IMG/VR virus record: IMGVR_UViG_3300021171_000008 | Location: 1 to 64,000 of that record | DNA: 64,000 nt | Strand: one strand, 5' to 3' | Source: a virus | Part shown: in pieces, positions 3,265-63,757 of the stretch | Position numbering within the stretch: the stretch's first letter is position 1 | How the letters are laid out: every line of letters begins with the position of its first letter | The notes under the pieces: model-generated | The model's input: the letters and a program-made list of their open reading frames with translations, nothing else | Databases searched by the model: none | What the model was told of the DNA's origin: nothing | Position numbers and translations under genes: made by a program

Positions 3265-4520
3265 TCGACTTTCCAGCCTCCCCTACGGTAGGCCAAGAAT
3301 TTACTTTCGCAGGCGTTACTTGGACTTGGGACGGGACCAAGTGGCTGGCGGCTGGGACCAGCCCTGGCTTCCTGCCGCTGACCGGCGGAGTCCTGACCGG
3401 CAATCTCGGCGGCGTAACCGCTGATTTTAGTGGTCAGGTGAATGCTCAGACGTTGGCTGGCCCAACCGGCGTTACGCCTCCCGTGGCGGCGGCGTCCCCT
3501 CCAGTCGCCGACAACAGCCTCGATTTGGCGACCACGGCGTGGGCCAACGCCAACGTCAAGATGGGCGACAACAGGCTCATCAATGGCGACATGCGGGTCG
3601 ATCAGCGTGGCGTCGCCAGCGGCGCGGGCGGGACGGCGGCCGGTTATACTATTGATCGCTGGCAATATTCTGCGATACAGGCTGCCAAAGGGACATGGAC
3701 GCGAAGTGCTTCGTCTGCGCCTGGGTTCCCTTATGCCTTGATGTTCACATCGTCGTCGGCTTACGCCGTTGTGAACAACGATATCTTCCTCTTCCTCCAA
3801 AACATCGAAGCCGACATGATCAGCGACTTCGCGTGGGGAACACCCAATGCGCAGCCGGTCACCTTGTCGTTTTGGGCTTATTCCAGTCTGATCGGGACGT
3901 TCAGCGGTGGTATCCGCAATCTCGCTATCCAGCGTGCTTATCCATTCACCTATTCGATTCCGGCTGCGAACACCTGGACGAAGATCAGCGTCACCATTCC
4001 GGGTGACACGGGTGGCGCATGGCCGCTTTCCGGCAGTGGAATCGGCGCGACGCTGGGTTTTAGCCTGGGGGCTGGGACCGGGACTTATAGCGCCCCTGCC
4101 AATGTGTGGGGCTCGACTTATGCCCTTGCTGCCCCTGGCTCGGTTAGCGTCGTCGGGACCAACGGCGCGATTTTTCAGATCACCGGCGTCAAGTTGGAGA
4201 TTGGCCCCGCAGCAACGCCGTTTAATCGCCAGTCGCTGGCCAAGAGTTTGGCGGATTGTCAGAGGTATTATCAGGCAAGAACGAATATGATCCAAATCGT
4301 TTCTTACATTAACGCTGGGGCTGATTTATATCAAGTCAATGGACTCCCCGTAACCATGCGTGTTGCTCCAACTGTCAACTTCACTGCTGCTTCATACTCT
4401 AATTGCAGTGCCGCTACTCTTAATCAAATTAGCCAAGATTGGATTACTGCACAAGCATCAGCTACAGCGACGGGCACTGCCTTCTTTACCATAACTTACG
4501 AGGCATCAGCGGAGCTTTGA
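3261..4520 (+). CDS. Tail fibre/receptor-binding protein
   Basis: MIDFPASPT N-terminus shared with previous gene; NRLINGDMRVDQR...DRW...VKLEIG..ATPF...CQRYY carbohydrate-binding-type fibre motifs. Confidence 0.8.
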   Translation: MIDFPASPTVGQEFTFAGVTWTWDGTKWLAAGTSPGFLPLTGGVLTGNLGGVTADFSGQVNAQTLAGPTGVTPPVAAASPPVADNSLDLATTAWANANVKMGDNRLINGDMRVDQRGVASGAGGTAAGYTIDRWQYSAIQAAKGTWTRSASSAPGFPYALMFTSSSAYAVVNNDIFLFLQNIEADMISDFAWGTPNAQPVTLSFWAYSSLIGTFSGGIRNLAIQRAYPFTYSIPAANTWTKISVTIPGDTGGAWPLSGSGIGATLGFSLGAGTGTYSAPANVWGSTYALAAPGSVSVVGTNGAIFQITGVKLEIGPAATPFNRQSLAKSLADCQRYYQARTNMIQIVSYINAGADLYQVNGLPVTMRVAPTVNFTAASYSNCSAATLNQISQDWITAQASATATGTAFFTITYEASAEL

Positions 4521-7753: not shown

Positions 7754-8044
7754 ATGGCGGGTCAGGTCAGCGGCGGCGAATTGCAGACGTTGATCTCAAC
7801 GCTGCAAAACGGAAACACGCAACTCGGCCATATTTTTCAGGCGCTAGGCGGCGTTGCCCCGCTGGCCACCGCGATCTCCGCGCTCGCTGCCACCTCCGCC
7901 GCCGTCCCGCAGATGGGCGAGGTCGTGTCGCGCACTGGCGGCGCTGGCCTCTCAGCGCCTCTGCCGGACGCCCCAGAGGGCTACGTCACCATCGACATTC
8001 CTGGCGTGGGGCCTCGGCTCATTCCTTACTATCCGGTGGGATAG
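7754..8044 (+). CDS. Hypothetical virion protein
   Basis: Tightly packed ORF in structural operon. Confidence 0.5.
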   Translation: MAGQVSGGELQTLISTLQNGNTQLGHIFQALGGVAPLATAISALAATSAAVPQMGEVVSRTGGAGLSAPLPDAPEGYVTIDIPGVGPRLIPYYPVG

Positions 8045-8048
8045 CGCC

Positions 8049-8768
8049 ATGAACGGCTCCGGCTACAACCCTTCGGCGATTCAGATCCGGCGGCAGCTCG
8101 GCGCCACGCGGCCGGTTCGCCCGCCGAGACTGCCGACGGCGAACGCGAACCCGAAGCTCGGCGGATCGCTCAACCTTCACTCGCTGATGCGGCCAGGGCG
8201 CGCGAGCGGCGGCGCAATCAACGACAGCCCCGAGACCCCGTTCACGGGCGGCATCATGTCGGTTGGAGCTGGTCGCGCCGATGACGTCCCGATGCACGTT
8301 CCTGACGGGGCTTATGTCGTGCCGGCGTGGGGGGTCAGCCACCTGGGCGAGGGGAACACGATGAGCGGCATGGCCATGCTCAAGGGCATGTTCGGGCAGC
8401 CGTGGGGCGCGGCGAAAGCGCCGTGGGGCGCGCCGCAGCCCAAGTCGATGTCGGGGGGAAAGGGCGTCCCGATCCCGAAGCCTCCGCCCATGCATTTTCA
8501 GCCGCCGAATTTCTATCCGCAGGGCATGTCAGCGGAGAACCCCGCGCTCGCGGACCCGAGGCAGAAGCACGGCGGCGCGGCGCGCGGCCCCGGTCCGGCA
8601 GTCCCGATTAACGCGAGCGGCGGCGAGTTCATTATCGCTCCAGATGAGGTCGCACGGATCGGGGACGGTAATATCGACAAAGGACACCTTGTCCTCGACA
8701 AGTGGATCACGCTTCTCAAGAAGGAAGCCGCGAAGACACTGATGAAGCTACCGGGACCAGCCAAATGA
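8049..8768 (+). CDS. Virion/internal protein with xAxGG motifs (GRADDVP..ASGGEFII)
   Basis: ORF in structural operon; 8607-8636 matches the decoded neighbouring array. Confidence 0.6.
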   Translation: MNGSGYNPSAIQIRRQLGATRPVRPPRLPTANANPKLGGSLNLHSLMRPGRASGGAINDSPETPFTGGIMSVGAGRADDVPMHVPDGAYVVPAWGVSHLGEGNTMSGMAMLKGMFGQPWGAAKAPWGAPQPKSMSGGKGVPIPKPPPMHFQPPNFYPQGMSAENPALADPRQKHGGAARGPGPAVPINASGGEFIIAPDEVARIGDGNIDKGHLVLDKWITLLKKEAAKTLMKLPGPAK

Positions 8769-8800
8769 ACTGGGAGGACGAGACGTGACCCTCATCCTCC

Positions 8801-8914
8801 CAGCCTTGGCGTGCCTGCCTGCCTTGCCTTGCCTCGCCATGCCACGCCAAGCCTCGCGCCGCCCCGCCGAGCCGCGCCTTGCCATGCCTCGCATGGCCAC
8901 CGCCATGCCCCGCC
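8801..8914 (-). ncRNA. Stand-alone GGY-NN pentamer array (putative guide RNA unit B)
   Basis: GGC-NN periodicity; upstream promoter-like TTGCAG..TATCT; 5' hairpin GCATGGC-GGTG-GCCATGC; 3' hairpin 8770-8803. Confidence 0.8.
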
Positions 8915-8954
8915 CAGATAACATGATTTGCACGAACTGCAAGGGCGCTCAGCC

Positions 8955-9521
8955 ATGAAAGATTTTAGCCGCGAGCACGAGAACGAGCTGCGCTCGACGC
9001 CACCGCGCATCCCGATCCGCTTAGCCGACGACGACGACGAGTTGGGCATCTTAGACATGTGCCGGTTGATGCACCGCGAGCAGCCCTATCACAGCTTAAA
9101 CATCGGCAAGGTCGCGGCGATGATTCGGCTAGCCATCCATCAAGGGCCGGAGCGGCGCGGCATCCTCGGCGTCATTGGCGAGCGCGATCATCTCAGGGCG
9201 GCCATCTTCCTGCTGATCGAGCCGATTTGGTACAGCGACGACTGGCAGTTGTTGGAATTTTTCAATTTCGTGCGGCCCGAATATCGGCGCCAAGCTTACG
9301 CCCAAGACCTCATCGCTTACGCCAAGCGCTGCTCCGATCAGATCGGCCTCGATCTCACCATCGGCGTGTTCTCGAACGTCCGGACCGCCGCGAAGATCCG
9401 GCTCTATCGCCGCTGGGTCCCGCAGTTCGGCGCGTTCTTCTGTTACGCGCCGCCGAACCGGAAACCGTTTATCGATCGCCTCGCTGAAATGACCCCCGCG
9501 AACAAAGTCGCTGCGGAGTAG
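8955..9521 (+). CDS. GNAT-fold acetyltransferase-like protein
   Basis: IRLADDDD start, FNFVRPEYRRQAYAQDLIAYAK motif A-like; usual position before podovirus ejection genes. Confidence 0.6.
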   Translation: MKDFSREHENELRSTPPRIPIRLADDDDELGILDMCRLMHREQPYHSLNIGKVAAMIRLAIHQGPERRGILGVIGERDHLRAAIFLLIEPIWYSDDWQLLEFFNFVRPEYRRQAYAQDLIAYAKRCSDQIGLDLTIGVFSNVRTAAKIRLYRRWVPQFGAFFCYAPPNRKPFIDRLAEMTPANKVAAE

Positions 9522-22603: not shown

Positions 22604-23711
22604 AGGGGAGGCCGCACTTCCGTAGGAGGTAAATCTAGGAGAAGGCGGCCTCCCAAGTCGCCCCCCGCAAGGGCGGTGCAAGGGGGGCTGACATGGCTAG
22701 GTTGTGGGACCCAGCCAATTCCACGCCTATAGCGCGGTCCACGGGGATTTGCACGTTCTGTTTTGCACCCCGTGCTAGGGATAACTACCTAGCGCGGGGG
22801 AAGTTCCTCACCGCTGGCCGCTCCAGCCATCTTCGATCCACGGGGCGTCTTCTTGCCGTCGCTGCGAGTGCTTGGCCCACGGCGGCTCCTCGGGAACCTT
22901 GGCCCGGTCTTGCCGTTGCAACTCTTTGATATTCGCGCGCAGCGTTGCGATGGCTTGTCTGGCTTCGTCCAGACCGGGCTCCCCGGCTTTCTCCAAGCGG
23001 GCAAAATCAGCCTCGCAGATATCAAGGATCTTCCAGTACGGCTCTAGGTCCAGCATATTCGACTCCGTTGACTGTCACGACAGCGCGATCAGCTGATCGG
23101 CGATGGCGTAGGCCGTGTCCGTGTCCTTCGTCGACCAGTCCGTGACCGGGTTCTGGCCGCGCCGCACGATCGCCAGCGAGACAGCGAGGATGGCGTCGCG
23201 CCGCGCCTCGGAGCGCTTGATCGCGTTGCCGTTAGCGGCGGCGGCGATGCCGAGATCCACATCGCCATGGATCTCCTTGTCGGACGGCGGGATGGAGCCG
23301 AGCATGCGCTTGAACGCAGGGGCTTCGCGCAGCGGCGCGCTCGCTGGAATGCCGACGCCAGGGCGAATGGCTTCGTGATCAGCAAGAGAAGATGTGGTGG
23401 CTTGGTAGGCGTCGTCACTCATTTGAGTTGTTCCTTCAGTTTATTGAGTCCCCTGGCCCGGTCGGGGTCTTGGACCGTCTCTGGCGCCGTGACCTCGATG
23501 CGCGGCTCGTCGAGGTTCCAAGTCGGAGGCAGCTTGGTGATCTCAACCGTCCAGTCGCGGTCTTGCTCACCGGCGCGATGCTGAAGCGCCTCTGGCGCAT
23601 AGGCGGTGTAGCAGCGTTGCGGCCACGGGTACTTCCAGATGGCGTGCTTGCGACATGCGGCGGCCGAGGGGGTCGCCAGTGTGATGGCGATCACAGCGAG
23701 CGCGGCCCGTT

Positions 23712-43022: not shown

Positions 43023-43411
43023 TGGTTCAGAGTCCCGCTCGCGTTCCTCAGACGTAGACTTTCCCGCTGCCGCCCTCTTCGATGTCGATCGGGTCATATT
43101 CGCCCGTGACCGCGCCGAACTCGTCAGGCTGCAACAGATATTCGCGGACATGTTCCCAGCCGCGATCTGCGGTGCGAGGCACGATGCGCAAAAGATGCTC
43201 CGGCGGGAACCCAAAGGACTCGTCCTCAAAATCAACGCGCACGCAGTCCGCCGTCTCGCGCTCGCTTCCAGTGACAGTCGCCAACTCGCAAGCGACCAGC
43301 CGTCCGTCCCAGTCGGCAATGTCATCGCCCTCAAGGTCCACTCGGTCGCCAATGCGAATATCGGCGGCCTTCACTTCGATCATGCATTCCATGGTCTTCG
43401 ACTCCGTTGGT

Positions 43412-43467
43412 AGGCTCATCAGTGGCGGCCAAACCGCCAGACGCGCGCCAGAGCGCGCGTTTCGCCT
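43412..43467 (-). ncRNA. Hammerhead ribozyme, type II
   Basis: AGGC-GAAAC-[GCGCGC/GCGCGC]-GUC-[UGGCGG/CCGCCA]-CUGAUGA-GCCU. Confidence 0.92.
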
Positions 43468-46699: not shown

Positions 46700-48233
46700 T
46701 TTGGTGAATTTTGTTGAGGAGGCGTGGCCGATTTTGGAGCCCCGGATGGTGTTTGTGAAGGGGCCTTTGGTCGAGGCGATCTGCGAGCATTTGGAAGCGG
46801 TTTCGGCGGGGCTGATTACGCGGCTGTTGATCAATGTTCCGCCTGGGTCGGCGAAGTCGCTTTTGGTCAGTGTGCTTTGGCCGAGCTGGGAATGGGGCCC
46901 TCGGGGTCTGACGTCGTATCGGTACATCAGCTCCAGTTTTGCGGAGAGCGCGTGCGTTCGGGACGTTCGCAAGATGCGGATGTTGGTGACCAGCGACTGG
47001 TATCAGCGTCACTGGCCGCATGTTGAGTTGACGCGCGGTGGGGAGCTGTCGTTTGAAAATTCGATGACGGGGACGCGGGACGGGGTTGCGTTCTCCAGTC
47101 TGACTAGCCGGCGCGGTGACAGATTGATTCTGGATGACCCGCACAGTGTGGAGAAGGCGGAGAGCCCGAACGATCGGGAGAAGGCGACGCGGCGGTTTCG
47201 GGAGAGCGCGGTGAACCGTCTGAACGATCAGGCGCGCTCGGCGATCGTTGTGGTGATGCAGCGGCTGCACGAGGCGGACATCAGCGGGGTGATCATGGAG
47301 TACATGCCCGATTATTGTTTGTTGGTTTTGCCGATGGAGTACGAATCGTCGCGGCATTGCGAAACGAGCATTGGATTTAGCGACTGGCGGCGCAGCGAGG
47401 GGGAGCTTTTGTTTCCGGCGCGGTGGGGCCGGCAGGAGGTTGAGAACCTCAAGCGGGACATGGACAAATTTGCGTGGGCTGGCCAGTACCAGCAGCGGCC
47501 GGCGCCGCGAGGCGGGGGGCTGTTTCCGTATGGCGGCTGGGAATATTGGCATCGCGGGATTGCGCTGACGTTCGGCAGGAACGAATCGCAATATCCGGAC
47601 ATGGACGTGATCCTGGGCTCGCTGGACCCGGCTTACGGCGAGAAGCAGGAAGCCGATTTTTCGGCCTTCATCGTGCTCGGGCTCTGGACGAACCATCGCG
47701 GGGTGCAACAGGCGATGTTGATGGCTTGCTGGCAGAAGCGGCTGGCGTTGAACGATCTGGTCGAGGAGGTGATCAAATCGTGCAGAAAATTGAAGGTCGA
47801 TCGGCTCTTAATCGAGCTGAAAGCGTCAGGGATCTCGGTCGCGCAGGAGATTTCGCGGCTGACGCGGGACGAGGAATTTGCGGTCCAGCGGATCGATCCG
47901 GGTAATATGGACAAGGTTTCGCGCGCGAACGCGCTGTCGCATTTGTGGGGCGAGGAGCAGGCGGATGGCAGTGTGCGCAAGGGCGTCATCTGGTGCCCAG
48001 CTCAGACGCAGAGTAACGGGGCGGTTTGGCCTCGGGATTGGGCCGAGCTGTGCATGAGCCAGTGCGCGAGCTTCCCGAAAGGGAAATTCGACGACATCGT
48101 TGACGCCTTGTGTCAGGCGCTGAAGTGGTGCCGCGATCGGGGCTTGCTGAAGAAGTCGACCGAGGTCCAGGCGGAGGAATACGCGGAGCTGATGGCGTCG
48201 CCGCTTCCCCCGCAGCCGCTGTACCCGATTTGA
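46575..48233 (+). CDS. terL: Terminase large subunit
   Basis: LLINVPPGSAKS, LILDDPH, VVMQRLHE, QYQQRP, IELKASG, FPKGKFDDIVDA. Confidence 0.95.
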   Translation: MPRSNLPSHEAVVAELMKRELGISSMEASASVSTVRERCRNSLVNFVEEAWPILEPRMVFVKGPLVEAICEHLEAVSAGLITRLLINVPPGSAKSLLVSVLWPSWEWGPRGLTSYRYISSSFAESACVRDVRKMRMLVTSDWYQRHWPHVELTRGGELSFENSMTGTRDGVAFSSLTSRRGDRLILDDPHSVEKAESPNDREKATRRFRESAVNRLNDQARSAIVVVMQRLHEADISGVIMEYMPDYCLLVLPMEYESSRHCETSIGFSDWRRSEGELLFPARWGRQEVENLKRDMDKFAWAGQYQQRPAPRGGGLFPYGGWEYWHRGIALTFGRNESQYPDMDVILGSLDPAYGEKQEADFSAFIVLGLWTNHRGVQQAMLMACWQKRLALNDLVEEVIKSCRKLKVDRLLIELKASGISVAQEISRLTRDEEFAVQRIDPGNMDKVSRANALSHLWGEEQADGSVRKGVIWCPAQTQSNGAVWPRDWAELCMSQCASFPKGKFDDIVDALCQALKWCRDRGLLKKSTEVQAEEYAELMASPLPPQPLYPI

Positions 48234-49606: not shown

Positions 49607-50273
49607 CCCCGATGGGCATCTGGGCGTTGATCGTGATGTGGTGGCGGGCGCGGCAGCGGGACGTCGACATGGAGATCCTGTGGCCGATCTGCCTGCGGGA
49701 GGCGGGCGATCTCGACCGGGCGAAAGCAGCATTTGCATTTCATGCTATGAACGACCCCGCGTGGTTGTGCCTGGGCGAGGAGCGGTTGCTCGCCTTCATC
49801 GACCGCCTGGAGGCCTATGACTGATGCCGACGAGCCGCCGTCTCTATGGAAACGCGGTTGATCAGATTGCCGATCGACTGACGGAGTCGCGCAAGCTCCT
49901 GCTTGAGGCGTTCAAAGCGATGGTGGATGAGCGCCCTGGCGAGGCGCAGACGTTGCTCGAACAGGCTGAGATGACGATTAGCGGCGCGGCGACGTTGGCC
50001 AAGTGGGCGACGACGCTCGTGAAGGAGGCGCGATGAGGATCGCGATTGTGCTTTTGGCCAATGCGCTCGTTTGGACGGCGCTTTGGCAGCTGGCGTCAGC
50101 GATGGCGCAATTCCGATGACCTCGCCAGCGCGGCAGCGGTTGTTGGACTTGGCGCAGAAGCTGGAGGATAGAGTTCCTCTGACGCCGAAGGAAAAGGCCT
50201 TTCTCGTGAGCGCCCTGTTAGCGATCAGCTTGGGCGTGGACGCCAATGAGGCGCTGTGGCTTAAGGACCGCAA

Positions 50274-50350
50274 GCCCAGGTAGCTCAGTTCGGTAGAGCG
50301 CTGCGTTGAAGGCGCAGGCGTCGGAGGTTCGATTCCTTCCTTGGGCACCA
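50274..50350 (+). tRNA. trnF: tRNA-Phe(GAA) with encoded CCA
   Basis: Full cloverleaf: GCCCAGG/CTTGGGC acceptor, CTGCG-TTGAAGG-CGCAG anticodon arm, GGAGG-TTCGATT-CCTTC T arm. Confidence 0.9.
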
Positions 50351-51209: not shown

Positions 51210-51295
51210 CATTTCTGGGCCTTGACGTTTCGCAGATCGTGCAAATATGGGCGAAACCACGGCCTACCGTTGGCTATTACAGCAAAGGAGTCGAA

Positions 51296-52111
51296 ATGAA
51301 GTCCCCGAGGGTGACGGCTAAGAAAGAATCCGTCGAAATCAAACCGATTGAGATGCGCAAATTCGTCGTCCATCTGGTCGGCGAGAATCTTCTCATGCAC
51401 CGCTTCGCGCAAAAAGCGTGGCAAGAACTGCTTTTGCCCGCCTCGAAAGGGAAGGCGGCCGAAGGCGCGCCGCTCAAGCATGATCCTCTGAGCGAGTTTC
51501 GCGATTCGCTCTATCGCTGCCGCGACGTCCAGGCGCCAACCCTGTTTCACTTGCCGAACGGCATCGTGAGCAAGGCCATGGCGGCGGCGGCGCTCGACAT
51601 GGGCGGGGCGTTCAAGACACAAATCCAGCGGCTGACCATGGTTCTGACGCCGACGCTGCATTTGTACGGCGTGCCGGAGCTGCGCATGGACATGGTGCGC
51701 AACTCCGATATGGCCAGGACGCCGGATGTGCGGACGCGGCCGATCTTTAAGCGCTGGGCGCTCCCCAATGTGGTGATCCAGTACAAGGTCGCGCCGCTCA
51801 ACGACAGCCAGATGCTGAATCTGCTCGCGGGCGCCGGCCAGATCGTCGGTTTCGGTGATGGTCGCCAGCAAAAGGGCGGTGGCCCGGAGGGCGGCCCGTT
51901 CGGCTGCTTCCGCATCGTCAGCGATCACAATGATCCGGAGCTGAAGGAGATCATGGCGACCGGCGGGCGGGCCGCACAGCAGGCCGCGTGGACCGATCCG
52001 GAGATGTTCGACGAGAACACCGCCGAATTGATGGACTGGTTCAACGTTGAGATCGATCGCCGCCACAAGCCTCGTCGGGGCGATGGCGCCGCCGTGCAAG
52101 TGGGAGCTTGA
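51296..52111 (+). CDS. Cas7/RAMP-like RNA-binding protein, putative effector of the GGY-NN arrays
   Basis: VHLVGENLLMH first strand, HLPNGIVSKAMAAAA helix, C-terminal Gly-rich loop AGQIVGFGDGRQQKGGG..FGCFRI; own promoter CTTGAC-N17-AATATG at 51221-51249. Confidence 0.75.
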   Translation: MKSPRVTAKKESVEIKPIEMRKFVVHLVGENLLMHRFAQKAWQELLLPASKGKAAEGAPLKHDPLSEFRDSLYRCRDVQAPTLFHLPNGIVSKAMAAAALDMGGAFKTQIQRLTMVLTPTLHLYGVPELRMDMVRNSDMARTPDVRTRPIFKRWALPNVVIQYKVAPLNDSQMLNLLAGAGQIVGFGDGRQQKGGGPEGGPFGCFRIVSDHNDPELKEIMATGGRAAQQAAWTDPEMFDENTAELMDWFNVEIDRRHKPRRGDGAAVQVGA

Positions 52112-52112
52112 A

Positions 52113-52604
52113 ATGGAGCAAGAACGACGAGAGCTTTTGTGGCAGGCGTTGGTCGCCAGCGCTGTTGACGGTCTCATCACGGCCGATAGCGTGGTCGAAG
52201 CCGCGAAGGACCCCGCGAACGTCCTGCACGGCGAGTTCGAGTGGCGGGACGATGTCGCCGCTCACCGATACAGGCTGCAACAGGCGCGGCAGCTGATCCG
52301 GATCTATTCCCCGCGAGTGGATTACATCTCGATCAAGGACGAGGCGCCGGTCGAGCGCGACATCGTCTACTTGCACGATCCGCGCGTCGGCCCGCGTGTC
52401 CAGGCCTACGTGTCGTCGGCCACTCTCGCGGACGATGGCGACGCTTCGCTCACGGCGGTCTTGCTCGAACTCAGGTCCGTCAGCGCGGCGGTGACGCGGC
52501 TCGCGCGCGTCGCTCATGCTCTGGGAGTCGAGTGCCCGACTGGGGATCTGGAGGCCGCCGTCCAGGCGTTGGCTGAGCGTCTCCAGGGGCGGAATGCAGC
52601 GTAA
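52113..52604 (+). CDS. Partner protein in RAMP operon
   Basis: VVEAAKDPANVLHGEFEWRDDVAAHRYRLQQARQLIR; lies between RAMP gene and array. Confidence 0.7.
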   Translation: MEQERRELLWQALVASAVDGLITADSVVEAAKDPANVLHGEFEWRDDVAAHRYRLQQARQLIRIYSPRVDYISIKDEAPVERDIVYLHDPRVGPRVQAYVSSATLADDGDASLTAVLLELRSVSAAVTRLARVAHALGVECPTGDLEAAVQALAERLQGRNAA

Positions 52605-52614
52605 GTGCGTATCA

Positions 52615-52884
52615 GGCAAGGCAGGCACGGTTAGGTGGGGCCGGGTAAGGCGAGGCAGGGTCAGGTTAGGTCCGGTGAGGCAGAGCAAGGCAGGCGCGGC
52701 TGGGCTGGGCAAGCCTTGGGCGGCATGGCTGGGCGCGCTTTGGTATGGCTCGGCAGGGCTCGGCAGGCACGGCGTGGCAAGGCGCGGCGAGGCTTGTCAA
52801 GGCATGGCTGGGCTAGGCGAGGCAGGCGAGGCAAGGCGAGGCTCGGTCTGGTGCGGCCGGGTCAGGCGAGGCAGGCCATGGCAC
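52615..52884 (+). ncRNA. Main GGY-NN pentamer array (four units separated by GGCA), putative guide RNAs
   Basis: About 50 GGY-NN units starting 10 nt after the partner gene stop and ending at a terminator. Confidence 0.85.
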
Positions 52885-52889
52885 GGGGG

Positions 52890-52915
52890 AGGGGGCGGCT
52901 TCGGCCGCCCCCTTT
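52890..52915 (+). terminator. Intrinsic terminator after array
   Basis: AGGGGGCGGC-TTCG-GCCGCCCCCT-TT. Confidence 0.8.
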
Positions 52916-53566
52916 CTATTTGTCGACCATCCTCGACACGACCGATCGCGTGAACGGGCGGCCGGACGAGCTGACAAAGCCCTGGTTCGCCAGCGCTGCG
53001 CGCACCGCGTTGAGCGATGCGCCTGCCTGACGCAGCTGCTTTGCGATCTTGGTCATCTTCGGGTCCATTTCGGCCCAGGATTTTCTGCCCTCGCACTTGC
53101 CGGTCGTGGCCTTCTTGCGGTCGCGCGCCGCCTTGAGCTTGGCGACCGTCAATGCCCGGTCGAACTCAGCGACCGCGCCCAGGATCTGCCGGACCAGGGA
53201 CGCCGTCGGCGTGTCCTCGACGAAGCTCCCAGGCGAATCGACGGCGACCAACTCGACGCCGAGATCTTGAAGCATCTTCCAGCCGGTTTCCTGCACCATG
53301 AGATCGCGGGCGAAGCGGTTGGCGGTCTCGACGAGGATCGTTCTCACGCCATTCCCGGCGATCCGCTGGAGCATGAGGCCGAAGCCCTCCCGCTGGGTGA
53401 CCGGATCGGCGCCGGAGACGGCGGCGTCGTAATATTCGGCGACGATCGAGATATCGTTTCGCTCGGCGAACTGGCGGACGGCCCGCTCTTGGCGGCCGAG
53501 GCTGTCCTTGTCGACGCCGACGTTGGTGGCGGACGAGGTTCGGAAGTAGGCGACGGCTTTTTTCAC
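52916..53566 (-). CDS. Serine recombinase (resolvase family) with C-terminal HTH
   Basis: AVAYFRTSS, SLGRQ, DAAVSG, NRFARD, ILGAVAEFDR. Confidence 0.9.
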   Translation of the reverse strand: MKKAVAYFRTSSATNVGVDKDSLGRQERAVRQFAERNDISIVAEYYDAAVSGADPVTQREGFGLMLQRIAGNGVRTILVETANRFARDLMVQETGWKMLQDLGVELVAVDSPGSFVEDTPTASLVRQILGAVAEFDRALTVAKLKAARDRKKATTGKCEGRKSWAEMDPKMTKIAKQLRQAGASLNAVRAALANQGFVSSSGRPFTRSVVSRMVDK

Positions 53567-62232: not shown

Positions 62233-62684
62233 GAAGCTCGTTGAGCGGCAGCCGCTCAAGCACGGTTCCGCCGTCCTCGCCGAAGACTTCCAGCTCCCAG
62301 CGGCCACCTAAGCTGCCGTGCTCCCGCCAGAGCGGCCAAGCTTTGTAAGCGCTCATCGTCGACTCTCTTTAAGCGCCGGGGCCTTCAGCGGCCTAGTCCC
62401 CGGCAGTCCGTTCTCACCCGCTAGCTTAGGCGTCCGCGAACCTGTATCCCTACTATTTCCGCGCCGTTGGGTCTTTCGGCAACGCGGCGATCAAGCGTTG
62501 GTGGCGCTCATATTCGGCGAGGCCGACGGCGAGGTCGGGGTGCTTTCCGGCATGGATGCTTTGCATCTTGGAGGCAAACCGAACCGGGCCATTGGTCTTG
62601 CCATGTTTGTCGATGTCCTGCGTAAGCGTGCTCATTCGACTCTCCTATTTGCATGACTGGGGCGGGACCCACGGCCCCGCCCCC

Positions 62685-62762
62685 TGCCTGCCTCGCCGCG
62701 CCTTGCCTTGCGCCGCCCTGCCACGCCTCGCCAAGCCTTGCCTTGACAGGCCTTGCCTCGCC
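62685..62762 (-). ncRNA. Stand-alone GGY-NN pentamer array (putative guide RNA unit C)
   Basis: 14 pentamers plus 2 GGCA; promoter TTGCAA-N17-TATCTT (62813-62785); 5' and 3' hairpins. Confidence 0.82.
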
Positions 62763-62866
62763 TCGGTGCATTTGCACCAACTGCAAGATAAGGGCCCTTT
62801 CGCGCAATTGCAATCGGCGCTAGGAATTGCCGCGTTGAAAGGCTGGACCCCAAAGAGGGTTCCGCC

Positions 62867-63757
62867 ATGGGCGAACACAGTCAAAAGAGCTTCACGGCCG
62901 ACAAACTCCGAAAGTTTGAGGTCTCGGGCAAAAACGGCGGCTCCGGAAACGGAGACAAGGGCGCTTCGGCAGACGATTTCGGGCGGAAAGCCGCCCGCAC
63001 GAGCGATTCTTCCGCGTTCGCCGCTGGCGGCGCCGCGAAGGCGCCCTCGCTTGGTCGCGCCGGCCGCGCGAAAGGCGGACGCATCAATCGCCCTGCGGTG
63101 GCTTCGGCTGACTTTAAGCCGTCGAAGACCGGCGGCAATTATCCCGGCAAGATTCCAGACAACGAGGGCGGCAAGGCCCGCAATCTTTCTATGCTCACCG
63201 ATGGCGGTCCGCGATCCTATGGCGATCGGCCGTTGATCATTGGCCATGGCGACCAAAACGCCATGCGCGCTAGAGGCGGCAAGGTTTCGCGCGCCAGGGG
63301 CGGCCGAACCGAAATTAGTGATCTGAGGGACGACAAGACTTCGCTCGCCAGAGGCGGGCGGGTCGGCCGCGCGCACGGCGGCAAGGCCAAGGGCGCGAAG
63401 GGCAAAACCGTCGTCAATGTCATCGTGGGCGGCAAAGGCGATCAGCAGCAGCCGCCTCCGACGCCTCCGATCATGCCGCACCCGATGGTGCCTCCTCCAC
63501 CTCCTCCGCCGCCGCCGCAGGGGATGCCTCCTGGTGGGATGCCGCCGGGGATGCCTCCTGGCGCTGGTATGCCGCCTCCGCCGCCGCCGAGACCGCCTAT
63601 GCCGCCTCCGGGTGGCATGCCGCCGGGAATGCCTCCTCCGGGCATGGGCCGCGCGCACGGCGGGCGGATCTCCGAGAAGTTCGGCGCGGGCTCCGGCCGA
63701 GGCCGGATGGAGAAGACCAAGCGCCAGGGCCACGGGAAGGTGAAGCTAGCCGAATGA
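62867..63757 (+). CDS. Basic Gly/Pro-rich virion protein with repeated RAxGG motifs
   Basis: RAKGG, RARGG, RAHGG repeats; 62900-62935 matches the decoded adjacent array. Confidence 0.65.
   Translation: MGEHSQKSFTADKLRKFEVSGKNGGSGNGDKGASADDFGRKAARTSDSSAFAAGGAAKAPSLGRAGRAKGGRINRPAVASADFKPSKTGGNYPGKIPDNEGGKARNLSMLTDGGPRSYGDRPLIIGHGDQNAMRARGGKVSRARGGRTEISDLRDDKTSLARGGRVGRAHGGKAKGAKGKTVVNVIVGGKGDQQQPPPTPPIMPHPMVPPPPPPPPPQGMPPGGMPPGMPPGAGMPPPPPPRPPMPPPGGMPPGMPPPGMGRAHGGRISEKFGAGSGRGRMEKTKRQGHGKVKLAE

What the first reader, a model, noticed from the sequence alone, without database searches (positions are those of the whole stretch)
8607..8942. Array B decodes to a motif of the upstream virion gene
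Minus-strand NNs at 8888-8839: AT AA GC TC GG GG GA TT GT AT (= I N A S G G E F V I). Own codons at 8607-8636: ATt AAc GCg AGc GGc GGc GAg TTc ATt ATc (INASGGEFII). 8 of 10 match; the differences are a synonymous Ser swap (AGC vs TCN) and Ile vs Val. The array forms an antisense mini-transcription unit inserted in the structural operon, directly beside the allele it would not match. Inference: a linked guide plus resistant allele could spread together by recombination, like a gene drive or homing cassette.
Basis: partly seen in the sequence, partly recalled or inferred. Interest (0 to 1): 0.9.

Follow-up and report, generated by a model that had tools for sequence, protein, structure and literature searches.

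The report
Phage VIPR guide beside resistant allele
This five-base repeat is a stand-alone guide-RNA gene of the phage's VIPR gene-silencing system (a CRISPR relative first described in 2026); its code spells a virion-gene motif exactly as rival sister phages carry it, while the phage's own copy next door is changed at three of the eleven positions read.

Summary
Array B (cassette 8770-8954, minus strand) is a stand-alone guide-RNA (vrRNA) gene of a VIPR system (bioRxiv 10.64898/2026.04.26.720920). In VIPR, GGY-NN pentamers pair through their NN with DNA while every third target base, usually the codon wobble, is skipped.

The window also holds the Cas7-like Vipr gene (51296-52111), an accessory gene and a main array.

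Guide B's 11-unit core matches:
- the phage's own virion-module gene at 8/11 units;
- eleven of twelve IMG/VR relatives at 10/11;
- one soil-metagenome relative at 11/11.

The own gene's only two family-unique codon changes (Val to Ile, Asp/Glu to Ala) both lie inside the footprint (2/11 codons against 0/268 elsewhere). The 185-bp cassette is absent from all 11 relatives whose junction could be read.

Three other guides of this phage match sister phages perfectly and their own copies imperfectly. Five of six such guides lie within about 650 bp of the own copy. This looks like a weapon against sibling phages kept beside a resistant allele.

The Ser codon swap is not the discriminator here. The gene-drive idea is untested, and expression could not be checked. 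This scan has noted the same layout in several other phages.

The parts
8770..8954 (-). Solo vrRNA cassette B, inserted between the p304 stop codon and the GNAT-like gene start
   Evidence: Alignment with relatives L124, L125 and L184. Relatives have either nothing here (overlapping stop/start) or a ~100-aa small ORF.
8915..8942 (-). Promoter-like TTGCAG-N16-TATCTG overlapping the palindrome TTGCA-N5-TGCAA (8928-8942)
   Evidence: Read from the sequence. The palindrome occurs 8 times in the window against 0.04 expected. The strict sigma-70 scan does not call it, so the promoter assignment is inferred.
8891..8908 (-). 5' hairpin (7-bp stem, 4-nt loop) directly before the guide
   Evidence: Centroid fold. 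Cassette C and its G004 homologue have a hairpin in the same place.
8834..8888 (-). Guide core: 11 GGY-NN units (AT AA GC TC GG GG GA TT GT AT GA)
   Evidence: Matches 11/11 in metagenome contig L184, 10/11 in eleven IMG/VR relatives, and 8/11 in the own gene.
8811..8833 (-). Two further units (AA AA) that match no allele, then GGCA-GGCA-GGCAC punctuation
   Evidence: The last two units before GGCA-GGC never match in guides A1, B, C or G004-D.
8770..8803 (-). Terminator hairpin followed on the minus strand by a U-rich run (8761-8769)
   Evidence: Fold of 8762-8918 minus: -83.8 kcal/mol, z = -4.4. There is no T-run after the hairpin on the plus strand.
8607..8639 (+). Own near-target site in p304 (codons 252-262), 8/11 units
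   Evidence: The only two codons of the gene whose first two bases are unique to this phage lie here (Fisher p = 0.0014).
7854..8768 (+). p304, a conserved gene of the virion module, function unknown
   Evidence: No Pfam family. It lies between a virion structural protein (phrog_3287) and a DNA-ejection protein (phrog_4287).
51296..52111 (+). vipr: lone Cas7/RAMP-like protein, 271 aa
   Evidence: AlphaFold model with pLDDT 84.7. All best Foldseek PDB hits are Csm3/Cas7, gRAMP or Cas7-11. Carries a G-loop GxGDxR and matches phrog_4652.
52113..52604 (+). Candidate vap (accessory gene), 163 aa
   Evidence: Start overlaps the vipr stop. Matches phrog_15946, unknown function. Nearest atlas clusters are viral hypothetical proteins with no nuclease family.
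52609..52894 (+). Main vrRNA array A: at least 4 guides separated by GGCA one-base phase shifts, then a terminator at 52897-52917
62673..62790 (-). Solo vrRNA cassette C with the same operator box
   Evidence: Its guide matches G001 at 12/12 and the own gene (62900-62935) at 10/12.
47568..47600 (+). Own TerL near-target of guide A1 (8/11; relative G005 11/11)
53486..53512 (-). Own serine-recombinase near-target of guide A4 (7/9; G001, G003 and G005 9/9)

Best explanation
Array B is a stand-alone vrRNA gene of this phage's VIPR system.

Inferred: it is transcribed from the minus strand as an RNA of about 150 nt, made of a 5' hairpin, 13 GGY-NN units, GGCA-GGCA punctuation and a terminator hairpin.

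Known from the VIPR papers: Vipr protomers, here encoded at 51296-52111, polymerise along the GGY triplets and present the NN dinucleotides. These pair with one strand of double-stranded DNA while every third target base is skipped, forming a stable R-loop filament that blocks transcription.

Shown here: the 11-unit core spells codon positions 1-2 of the motif I-N-A-S-G-G-E-F-V-I-D/E in a conserved virion-module gene. It matches one related soil phage perfectly, eleven others at 10/11, and the phage's own copy 200 bp away at only 8/11. The own copy carries two substitutions found in no relative, plus the other Ser codon box.

Inferred: the guide silences or roadblocks the late operon of competing sibling phages, superinfecting or resident, while the carrier's own allele escapes. 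Keeping the guide beside the escaping allele ensures the two are inherited together.
For: - GGCNN arrays are widespread in phage contigs and are the published vrRNAs.
- The neighbouring 271-aa protein folds as a Cas7/Csm3-type RAMP with a conserved G-loop.
- Guide against alleles: own 8/11, eleven relatives 10/11, one relative 9/11, and a metagenome relative 11/11 with TCT Ser, GTG Val and GAC Asp.
- Shuffled guides never exceed 18/22 bases, against 20-22 for relatives.
- Own-unique NN changes: 2/11 footprint codons against 0/268 elsewhere in the gene, p = 0.0014.
- The cassette is absent from 11 relatives.
- The same logic holds for guides A1, A4 and C, which match relatives perfectly at 11/11, 9/9 and 12/12 and their own copies at 8/11, 7/9 and 10/12. 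It also holds for two solo guides of relative G004.
- The skipped base is the wobble position in every case.
Against:
- How many mismatches VIPR tolerates is not known. On a per-base count the own core scores 18/22 = 0.82, right at the 0.8 cut-off the papers use to call targets, so self-binding is not excluded.
- No conserved 3' tail is shared by cassettes A, B and C, unlike the SUSP1 clade.
- In a mixed infection the carrier's own proteins could complement a silenced sibling gene, so the benefit of silencing a structural gene is not obvious.
- Host and lifestyle are unknown; the recombinase is a small resolvase type.
- Only one perfect target was found in all the collections scanned.
Confidence: 0.85

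Rival explanations
1. Self-regulation. The guide is a partial-match regulator of the phage's own neighbouring gene or late operon, for example to time it, and relatives match better only because the own gene has drifted.
For: Five of six guides with family targets lie within about 650 bp of the own copy, which a cis-regulatory role would also explain. The own core identity is 0.82 per base.
Against: A regulator of self should be kept matched to self. Instead, the only two family-unique codon changes in the 279 scorable codons of the gene (those aligned to at least three relatives) fall in the footprint and reduce the match. Three other guides match relatives perfectly but not self.
Confidence: 0.06
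2. Inert relic. The cassette is a decayed or silent copy of a vrRNA gene with no present function.
For: No expression data. The promoter hexamers are weak. One unit has CGC instead of GGC.
Against: The guide is still perfect against a living allele. The hairpins are intact. The operator palindrome is exact. The own allele shows escape-type changes, which implies past or present activity.
Confidence: 0.05
3. Decoy or hijack guide. The solo vrRNA is made to load a competitor's Vipr protein, as satellite solo vrRNAs do, rather than the phage's own.
For: Solo vrRNAs that redirect a foreign VIPR are documented. Cassette B shares no tail with the main array.
Against: This genome keeps its own vipr. 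Of five related genomes only one has a VIPR system, and its Vipr is very divergent. The target is a sibling's essential-module gene, not a decoy repeat.
Confidence: 0.03
4. Chance resemblance between a simple repeat and a nearby gene.
For: The self-match alone is no better than the best shuffled-guide hit.
Against: Relatives score 20-22 of 22 at the homologous, in-frame, wobble-aligned site. A 22-base gapped pattern hit exactly one metagenome record, and that hit is the same gene. Four guides show the same behaviour.
Confidence: 0.01

Closest known systems
VIPR systems, type II exemplars of Escherichia phage SUSP1 and a Pseudomonas fulva prophage (bioRxiv 10.64898/2026.04.26.720920; structures 10.64898/2026.04.26.720927)
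   Same: A lone Cas7-like Vipr gene with a small accessory gene. vrRNAs of 9-16 GGY/NN pentamers. Target read by the 1-nt skip rule with the skipped base at the wobble position. Targets lie in competing mobile elements, on either strand, with no PAM.
   Different: The Vipr is far from anything in GenBank phages, and its clade lacks the G-loop Trp. The main array is punctuated by GGCA one-base shifts (staggered-like) rather than by tails. There is no shared pseudoknot tail. Targets are core genes (terminase, recombinase, virion genes) of close sibling phages rather than satellites or lysogeny regulators. The published surveys found no self hits of 80% or more, whereas here near-self hits are the rule.
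Solo (orphan) vrRNAs of F5 satellites and VIPR-null SUSP1-like phages (bioRxiv 10.64898/2026.10.15.759431)
   Same: A stand-alone vrRNA gene away from the vipr operon. Self-match scores are lower than non-self scores, which is read as avoidance of autoimmunity.
   Different: The carrier keeps its own vipr. The target is a structural-module gene, not vipr, another vrRNA or host REP elements. The guide sits directly beside the carrier's own mismatched copy of the target, a layout not mentioned in the three preprints read.
Free-standing homing endonucleases of T-even phages (seg/mob genes, localized marker exclusion; from general knowledge, not tested here)
   Same: A weapon gene inserted between conserved genes, right next to the carrier's own resistant allele of the sequence it attacks in relatives.
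   Different: There is no nuclease: the cassette is non-coding and the accessory gene shows no nuclease family. Known type II VIPR systems silence rather than cut. No gene conversion has been shown.
Class 1 CRISPR backbone proteins (Csm3/Cas7) with crRNA
   Same: The RAMP fold of the protein and a protein filament on a guide RNA with periodic flipped bases.
   Different: No repeat-spacer array. The guide is 5-nt periodic with only 2 of 5 bases pairing, and the target is gapped.

Membership tests
VIPR system | Lone RAMP/Cas7-like Vipr protein encoded next to the repeat RNA | tested here: met
   The 271-aa ORF at 51296-52111 lies 500 bp upstream of main array A. Its model has pLDDT 84.7 and pTM 0.82. 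The top 40 or more Foldseek PDB hits are all Csm3/Cas7, gRAMP or Cas7-11, with E down to 7e-5 and probability 1.0. G-loop residues GxGD.R are invariant in 61 homologues.
VIPR system | vrRNA made of about 9-16 tandem GGY/NN (YNNGG) pentamers | tested here: met
   Array B has 13 in-phase units, 12 with GGC and one with CGC. Arrays A and C are built alike.
VIPR system | NN dinucleotides match targets under the 1-nt skip rule, wobble-aligned, at 80% or more in other mobile elements | tested here: met
   B matches 22/22 bases in L184 and 20-21/22 in eleven relatives. A1 matches 11/11, A4 9/9 and C 12/12 in relatives. All are in frame with the skip at codon position 3.
VIPR system | Adjacent accessory gene (vap1-6) | tested here: inconclusive
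   A 163-aa ORF overlaps the vipr stop. It belongs to phrog_15946 (unknown function) and resembles viral hypothetical clusters only. No vap reference sequences were on hand for comparison.
VIPR system | Conserved structured 3' tail after the repeats | tested here: inconclusive
   Each RNA ends in GGCA-GGC plus a GC-rich hairpin, but the hairpins of A, B and C are unrelated in sequence. No pseudoknot search was possible with one sequence each.
VIPR system | vrRNA is expressed, binds Vipr and represses matching DNA | not testable with these tools
CRISPR-Cas | Array of 20-50-nt direct repeats separated by unique spacers | tested here: not met
   Tandem repeat search of the window finds only the pentamer arrays and short coding repeats.
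Homing-endonuclease cassette (works-like comparison only) | Encodes a site-specific nuclease that cuts the sensitive allele | tested here: not met
   The cassette is 185 bp and non-coding. The vap candidate and Vipr show no nuclease family.

The most novel reading that the evidence does not exclude
Guide cassette and adjacent resistant allele form one co-inherited selfish module: an RNA-guided, nuclease-free analogue of homing-endonuclease marker exclusion.

In mixed infections the VIPR filament would disable sibling genomes at the target site. This could work in cis as well, as a roadblock to transcription, replication or packaging. Sibling genomes would be rescued only by recombination that imports the resistant allele, and with it the guide 130-200 bp away. 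The cassette would therefore spread through the phage family.

The evidence does not exclude this. It fits three observations:
- five of six guides lie within about 650 bp of the own copy, in genomes of about 75 kb;
- the own-unique substitutions are confined to the footprint;
- the cassette is inserted precisely between genes.
Probability: 0.3. Interest if true: 0.75.

Novelty: new member of a known kind. Interest (0 to 1): 0.45.

Why it matters
This is an independent natural confirmation of the gapped VIPR code in an uncultured soil phage lineage far from the E. coli and Pseudomonas models.

It also adds points that are absent from the three VIPR preprints I read:
- Guides can be aimed at core genes of close sibling phages.
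- The carrier's own copies escape through changes confined to the footprint. These include switches between the two Ser or Arg codon boxes, the only synonymous route past a wobble-skipping guide.
- Solo guide genes sit right beside the escaping allele.

This gives a concrete, testable case for two open questions: how VIPR phages avoid autoimmunity, and how guides spread.

Tried and rejected
- **Chance.** Rejected by shuffled-guide tests in the window and across relatives.
- **Coding repeat or known RNA family.** No Rfam family covers the arrays. The ORFs across the array are by-products of the 5-nt period.
- **General self-matching of such arrays.** In 294 array segments from 120 other viral loci, the decoded guides showed no excess of matches to their own flanks. 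Near-self matches are therefore special to this kind of solo-guide layout, or their targets lie outside the fetched flanks.
- **Exact gapped search for the 10-unit core in IMG/VR.** No hit.
- **Search with the Ser codon left free.** Only the ten already known relatives, all with AGY Ser.
- **Search for the own resistant allele in IMG/VR.** No hit.
- **Genome-contig scan.** Three hits in unrelated MAGs that do not encode the homologous gene, about the number expected by chance. No host was identified.
- **Close relatives of this Vipr in IMG/VR.** Only 36-37% identical proteins. GenBank phages gave one weak hit. Sequence search of the PDB gave none.
- **Targets of main-array guides A2 and A3.** None found in this genome, the five relatives or IMG/VR.
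- **Main-array guides of relative G004.** No convincing hits in the six genomes.
- **Tools unavailable.** No read-level or expression check was made, and read laying could not be used.

Full report
**What is in the sequence**

Between the stop codon of a 304-aa gene (7854-8768, here called p304) and the start of a GNAT-like gene (8955-9521) lies a 185-bp non-coding stretch. On the minus strand it reads as a run of GGC-NN pentamers. The own codons at 8607-8636 translate to INASGGEFII. Eight of ten units agree.

The window has two more arrays of the same kind:
- a long one at 52609-52894 on the plus strand;
- a short one at 62673-62777 on the minus strand.

The whole record is a 78.4-kb IMG/VR virus contig that CheckV rates complete.

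**Is the match more than chance?**

Taken alone, the self-match of array B is borderline. Shuffling the order of the units and searching the whole window gives an equal dinucleotide score in 34 of 300 trials. At the amino-acid level it does so in 1 of 300.

- guide A1 to the large terminase;
- guide A4 to the serine recombinase;
- guide C to the gene at 62867-63757.

Each of these reached the score in 0 of 300 shuffles at the amino-acid level. The phenomenon is therefore real even though B's own-gene match is the weakest of the four.

**What it is**

An exact scan of IMG/VR for seven GGC triplets at 5-nt spacing returned more than 120 phage loci with such arrays. A literature search then showed that these are the vrRNAs of VIPR systems, described in 2026.

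In a VIPR system a lone Cas7-like protein, Vipr, polymerises on the GGY triplets. The NN dinucleotides pair with one strand of double-stranded DNA while every third target base is skipped. The skipped base usually falls on the codon wobble. Targets are competing phages, satellites or other VIPR systems, and the outcome is transcriptional silencing.

The window meets the family's defining features:
- The 271-aa ORF at 51296-52111, just upstream of the main array, gives a confident model (pLDDT 84.7). Its best PDB matches are all Csm3/Cas7-type RAMPs.
- Its 61 aligned homologues keep an invariant G-loop GxGD.R, although this clade lacks the usual Trp.
- A 163-aa ORF overlaps its stop codon and is the candidate accessory gene. 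Its family is unknown and shows no nuclease signature.

**Anatomy of cassette B (minus strand)**

- A promoter-like TTGCAG-N16-TATCTG lies at 8942-8915. It overlaps an exact palindrome, TTGCA-N5-TGCAA, that occurs eight times in the window against 0.04 expected. The palindrome also marks cassette C.
- A 7-bp hairpin lies at 8908-8891.
- Thirteen in-phase units run from 8888 to 8824.
- GGCA-GGCA-GGCAC punctuation follows.
- A long hairpin lies at 8803-8770, followed by a U-rich run.

The strict sigma-70 scan does not call the promoter, so transcription is inferred from orientation and architecture, not shown. In cassettes B and C the matching part of the guide starts at the first unit after the 5' hairpin. 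In guides A1, B, C and G004-D, the last two units before GGCA-GGC match no allele.

**The real target**

Twelve related IMG/VR contigs encode p304 homologues. Eleven of the twelve read I-N-A-S-G-G-E-F-V at the site, followed by I or V and then D or E. The twelfth has Ser where the others have D or E. Only this phage reads F-I-I-A.

At the codon level the 11-unit core of guide B scores:
- 8/11 on the own gene;
- 10/11 on eleven relatives;
- 9/11 on one relative.

The usual mismatch is the Ser codon, which is AGC in most relatives. One relative has TCA. A gapped scan of the metagenome collection for the full 11-unit pattern hit a single record. That record is the same gene in a related soil phage, with TCT Ser, GTG Val and GAC Asp: a perfect 11/11 match.

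Per base, relatives score 20-22 of 22. Shuffled guides never exceed 18, which is also what the own site scores.

**The own allele looks selected to escape**

I aligned 12 p304 homologues by codon. The first two bases are unique to this phage at exactly two codons, and both lie in the 11-codon footprint: Val to Ile and Asp/Glu to Ala. That is 2/11 against 0/268 elsewhere (Fisher p = 0.0014).

For the other guides, own-specific box switches do occur:
- Arg AGG against CGC in the terminase;
- Ser AGC against TCN in the recombinase, shared with the other VIPR-bearing relative.

Pooled over the four genes the enrichment is modest (p = 0.019).

**The cassette is an insertion**

In eight relatives the junction was read directly. 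There the p304 stop either overlaps the next gene's start or is followed by a small ORF of about 100 aa, never by an array. Three further relatives have either no arrays at all or arrays only elsewhere in the genome.

Cassette C is likewise inserted. It sits between the operator palindrome and the ribosome-binding site of a small leftward gene. Relative G004 has a homologous cassette with a different guide, aimed at the start-codon region of the same neighbouring gene on the other strand.

**Pattern across guides**

| Guide | Best match in relatives | Match to own copy |
|---|---|---|
| A1 | G005 terminase, 11/11 | 8/11 |
| A4 | recombinases of G001, G003 and G005, 9/9 | 7/9 |
| C | G001, 12/12 | 10/12 |

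(All.)

G004's solo guide D matches this window perfectly over its eight core units at 23097-23120, and matches its own copy at 7/8. The rivalry is therefore reciprocal.

Of the six guides with family targets, five lie within about 60-650 bp of the carrier's own copy. With genomes of about 75 kb this is very unlikely by chance. My estimate is about 0.017 per guide; this is an inference, not a tool result.

In contrast, 294 array segments from 120 unrelated phage loci show no excess of matches to their own flanks.

**Mechanism and its limits**

Shown here:
- membership of the VIPR family by protein fold, repeat form and code;
- a better match to siblings than to self;
- own-unique changes confined to the footprint;
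- the insertion.

Taken from the papers:
- filament formation;
- gapped R-loop binding;
- silencing.

Inferred:
- that this RNA is made and loaded;
- that three mismatched units are enough to spare the own gene;
- that the benefit is exclusion of sibling phages.

A weakness of the simple silencing story is that a co-infecting carrier could supply the silenced protein in trans. A cis-acting roadblock on the sibling genome, or action from or against a prophage, would avoid this problem, but neither is shown. Host and lifestyle remain unknown.

**Novelty**

The system and its code are known. This is a new member from an uncultured soil lineage.

The three preprints I read do not describe solo guides placed beside an escaping own allele, nor the targeting of sibling core genes. 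One of them does report lower self scores than non-self scores for vrRNA-targeting guides.

Earlier notes of this same scan describe the same layout in several other phages. Those are unchecked AI notes and I do not count them as evidence.

The gene-drive reading remains an attractive hypothesis. I rate it at about 0.3.

Noticed in passing
window 8928, 18003, 20714, 28472, 31712, 44767, 53754, 62772 (15 bp each): The exact palindrome TTGCA-N5-TGCAA occurs 8 times against 0.04 expected. It sits at the promoters of cassettes B and C and upstream of the recombinase. A one-mismatch copy lies in the vipr promoter (51212-51250). It is probably the operator or promoter element of an unidentified phage regulator that co-controls the VIPR parts.
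   Followed up: partly
window 23097-23120: The solo guide D of the related phage G004 (its 50242-50274) matches this window perfectly over its eight core units, at the 3' end of a 115-aa gene of unknown function (23075-23422, minus). G004's own copy has one mismatch. The two VIPR-bearing siblings therefore target each other.
   Followed up: partly
window 62640-62790 and relatives G001-G004: Cassette C is inserted between the operator palindrome and the ribosome-binding site of a leftward 60-aa gene, so it sits in that gene's 5' leader. The heptamer ATTTGCA is present on both sides of the insert. Array-less relatives have the operator directly next to the ribosome-binding site.
   Followed up: partly
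window 43406-43467 (-): Rfam type II hammerhead ribozyme hit just above threshold (39.3 against 37 bits). Some VIPR types have hammerhead-interspersed arrays, but this one is 9 kb from the nearest array.
   Followed up: no
window 52693-52825: Main-array guides A2 and A3 have no detectable target in this genome, in five relatives or in IMG/VR. A2 also contains an irregular 7-nt unit.
   Followed up: partly
L167 (G004) 3360-4049 and 4053-4500: Relative G004 has a very divergent Vipr (phrog_4652; only 31% identity over 64 aa to this one). It lies in the same genomic neighbourhood, between terminase and recombinase, next to ParB-like and HNH genes. Its near-twin G003 lacks the whole 3.6-kb locus.
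   Followed up: partly
window 51296-52111: In this Vipr clade the G-loop Trp is replaced by Gly/Ser/Ala and a 6-residue insert follows. In SUSP1 Vipr that Trp stacks on the second G of GGY.
   Followed up: no
L185 3681-3712: A 43-kb contig binned as Campylobacterales, but with 58% G+C, encodes I-N-A-V-G-G-D-F-V-I-D-D. This is a possible distant homologue of the p304 motif, in what may be a mis-binned phage contig.
   Followed up: no
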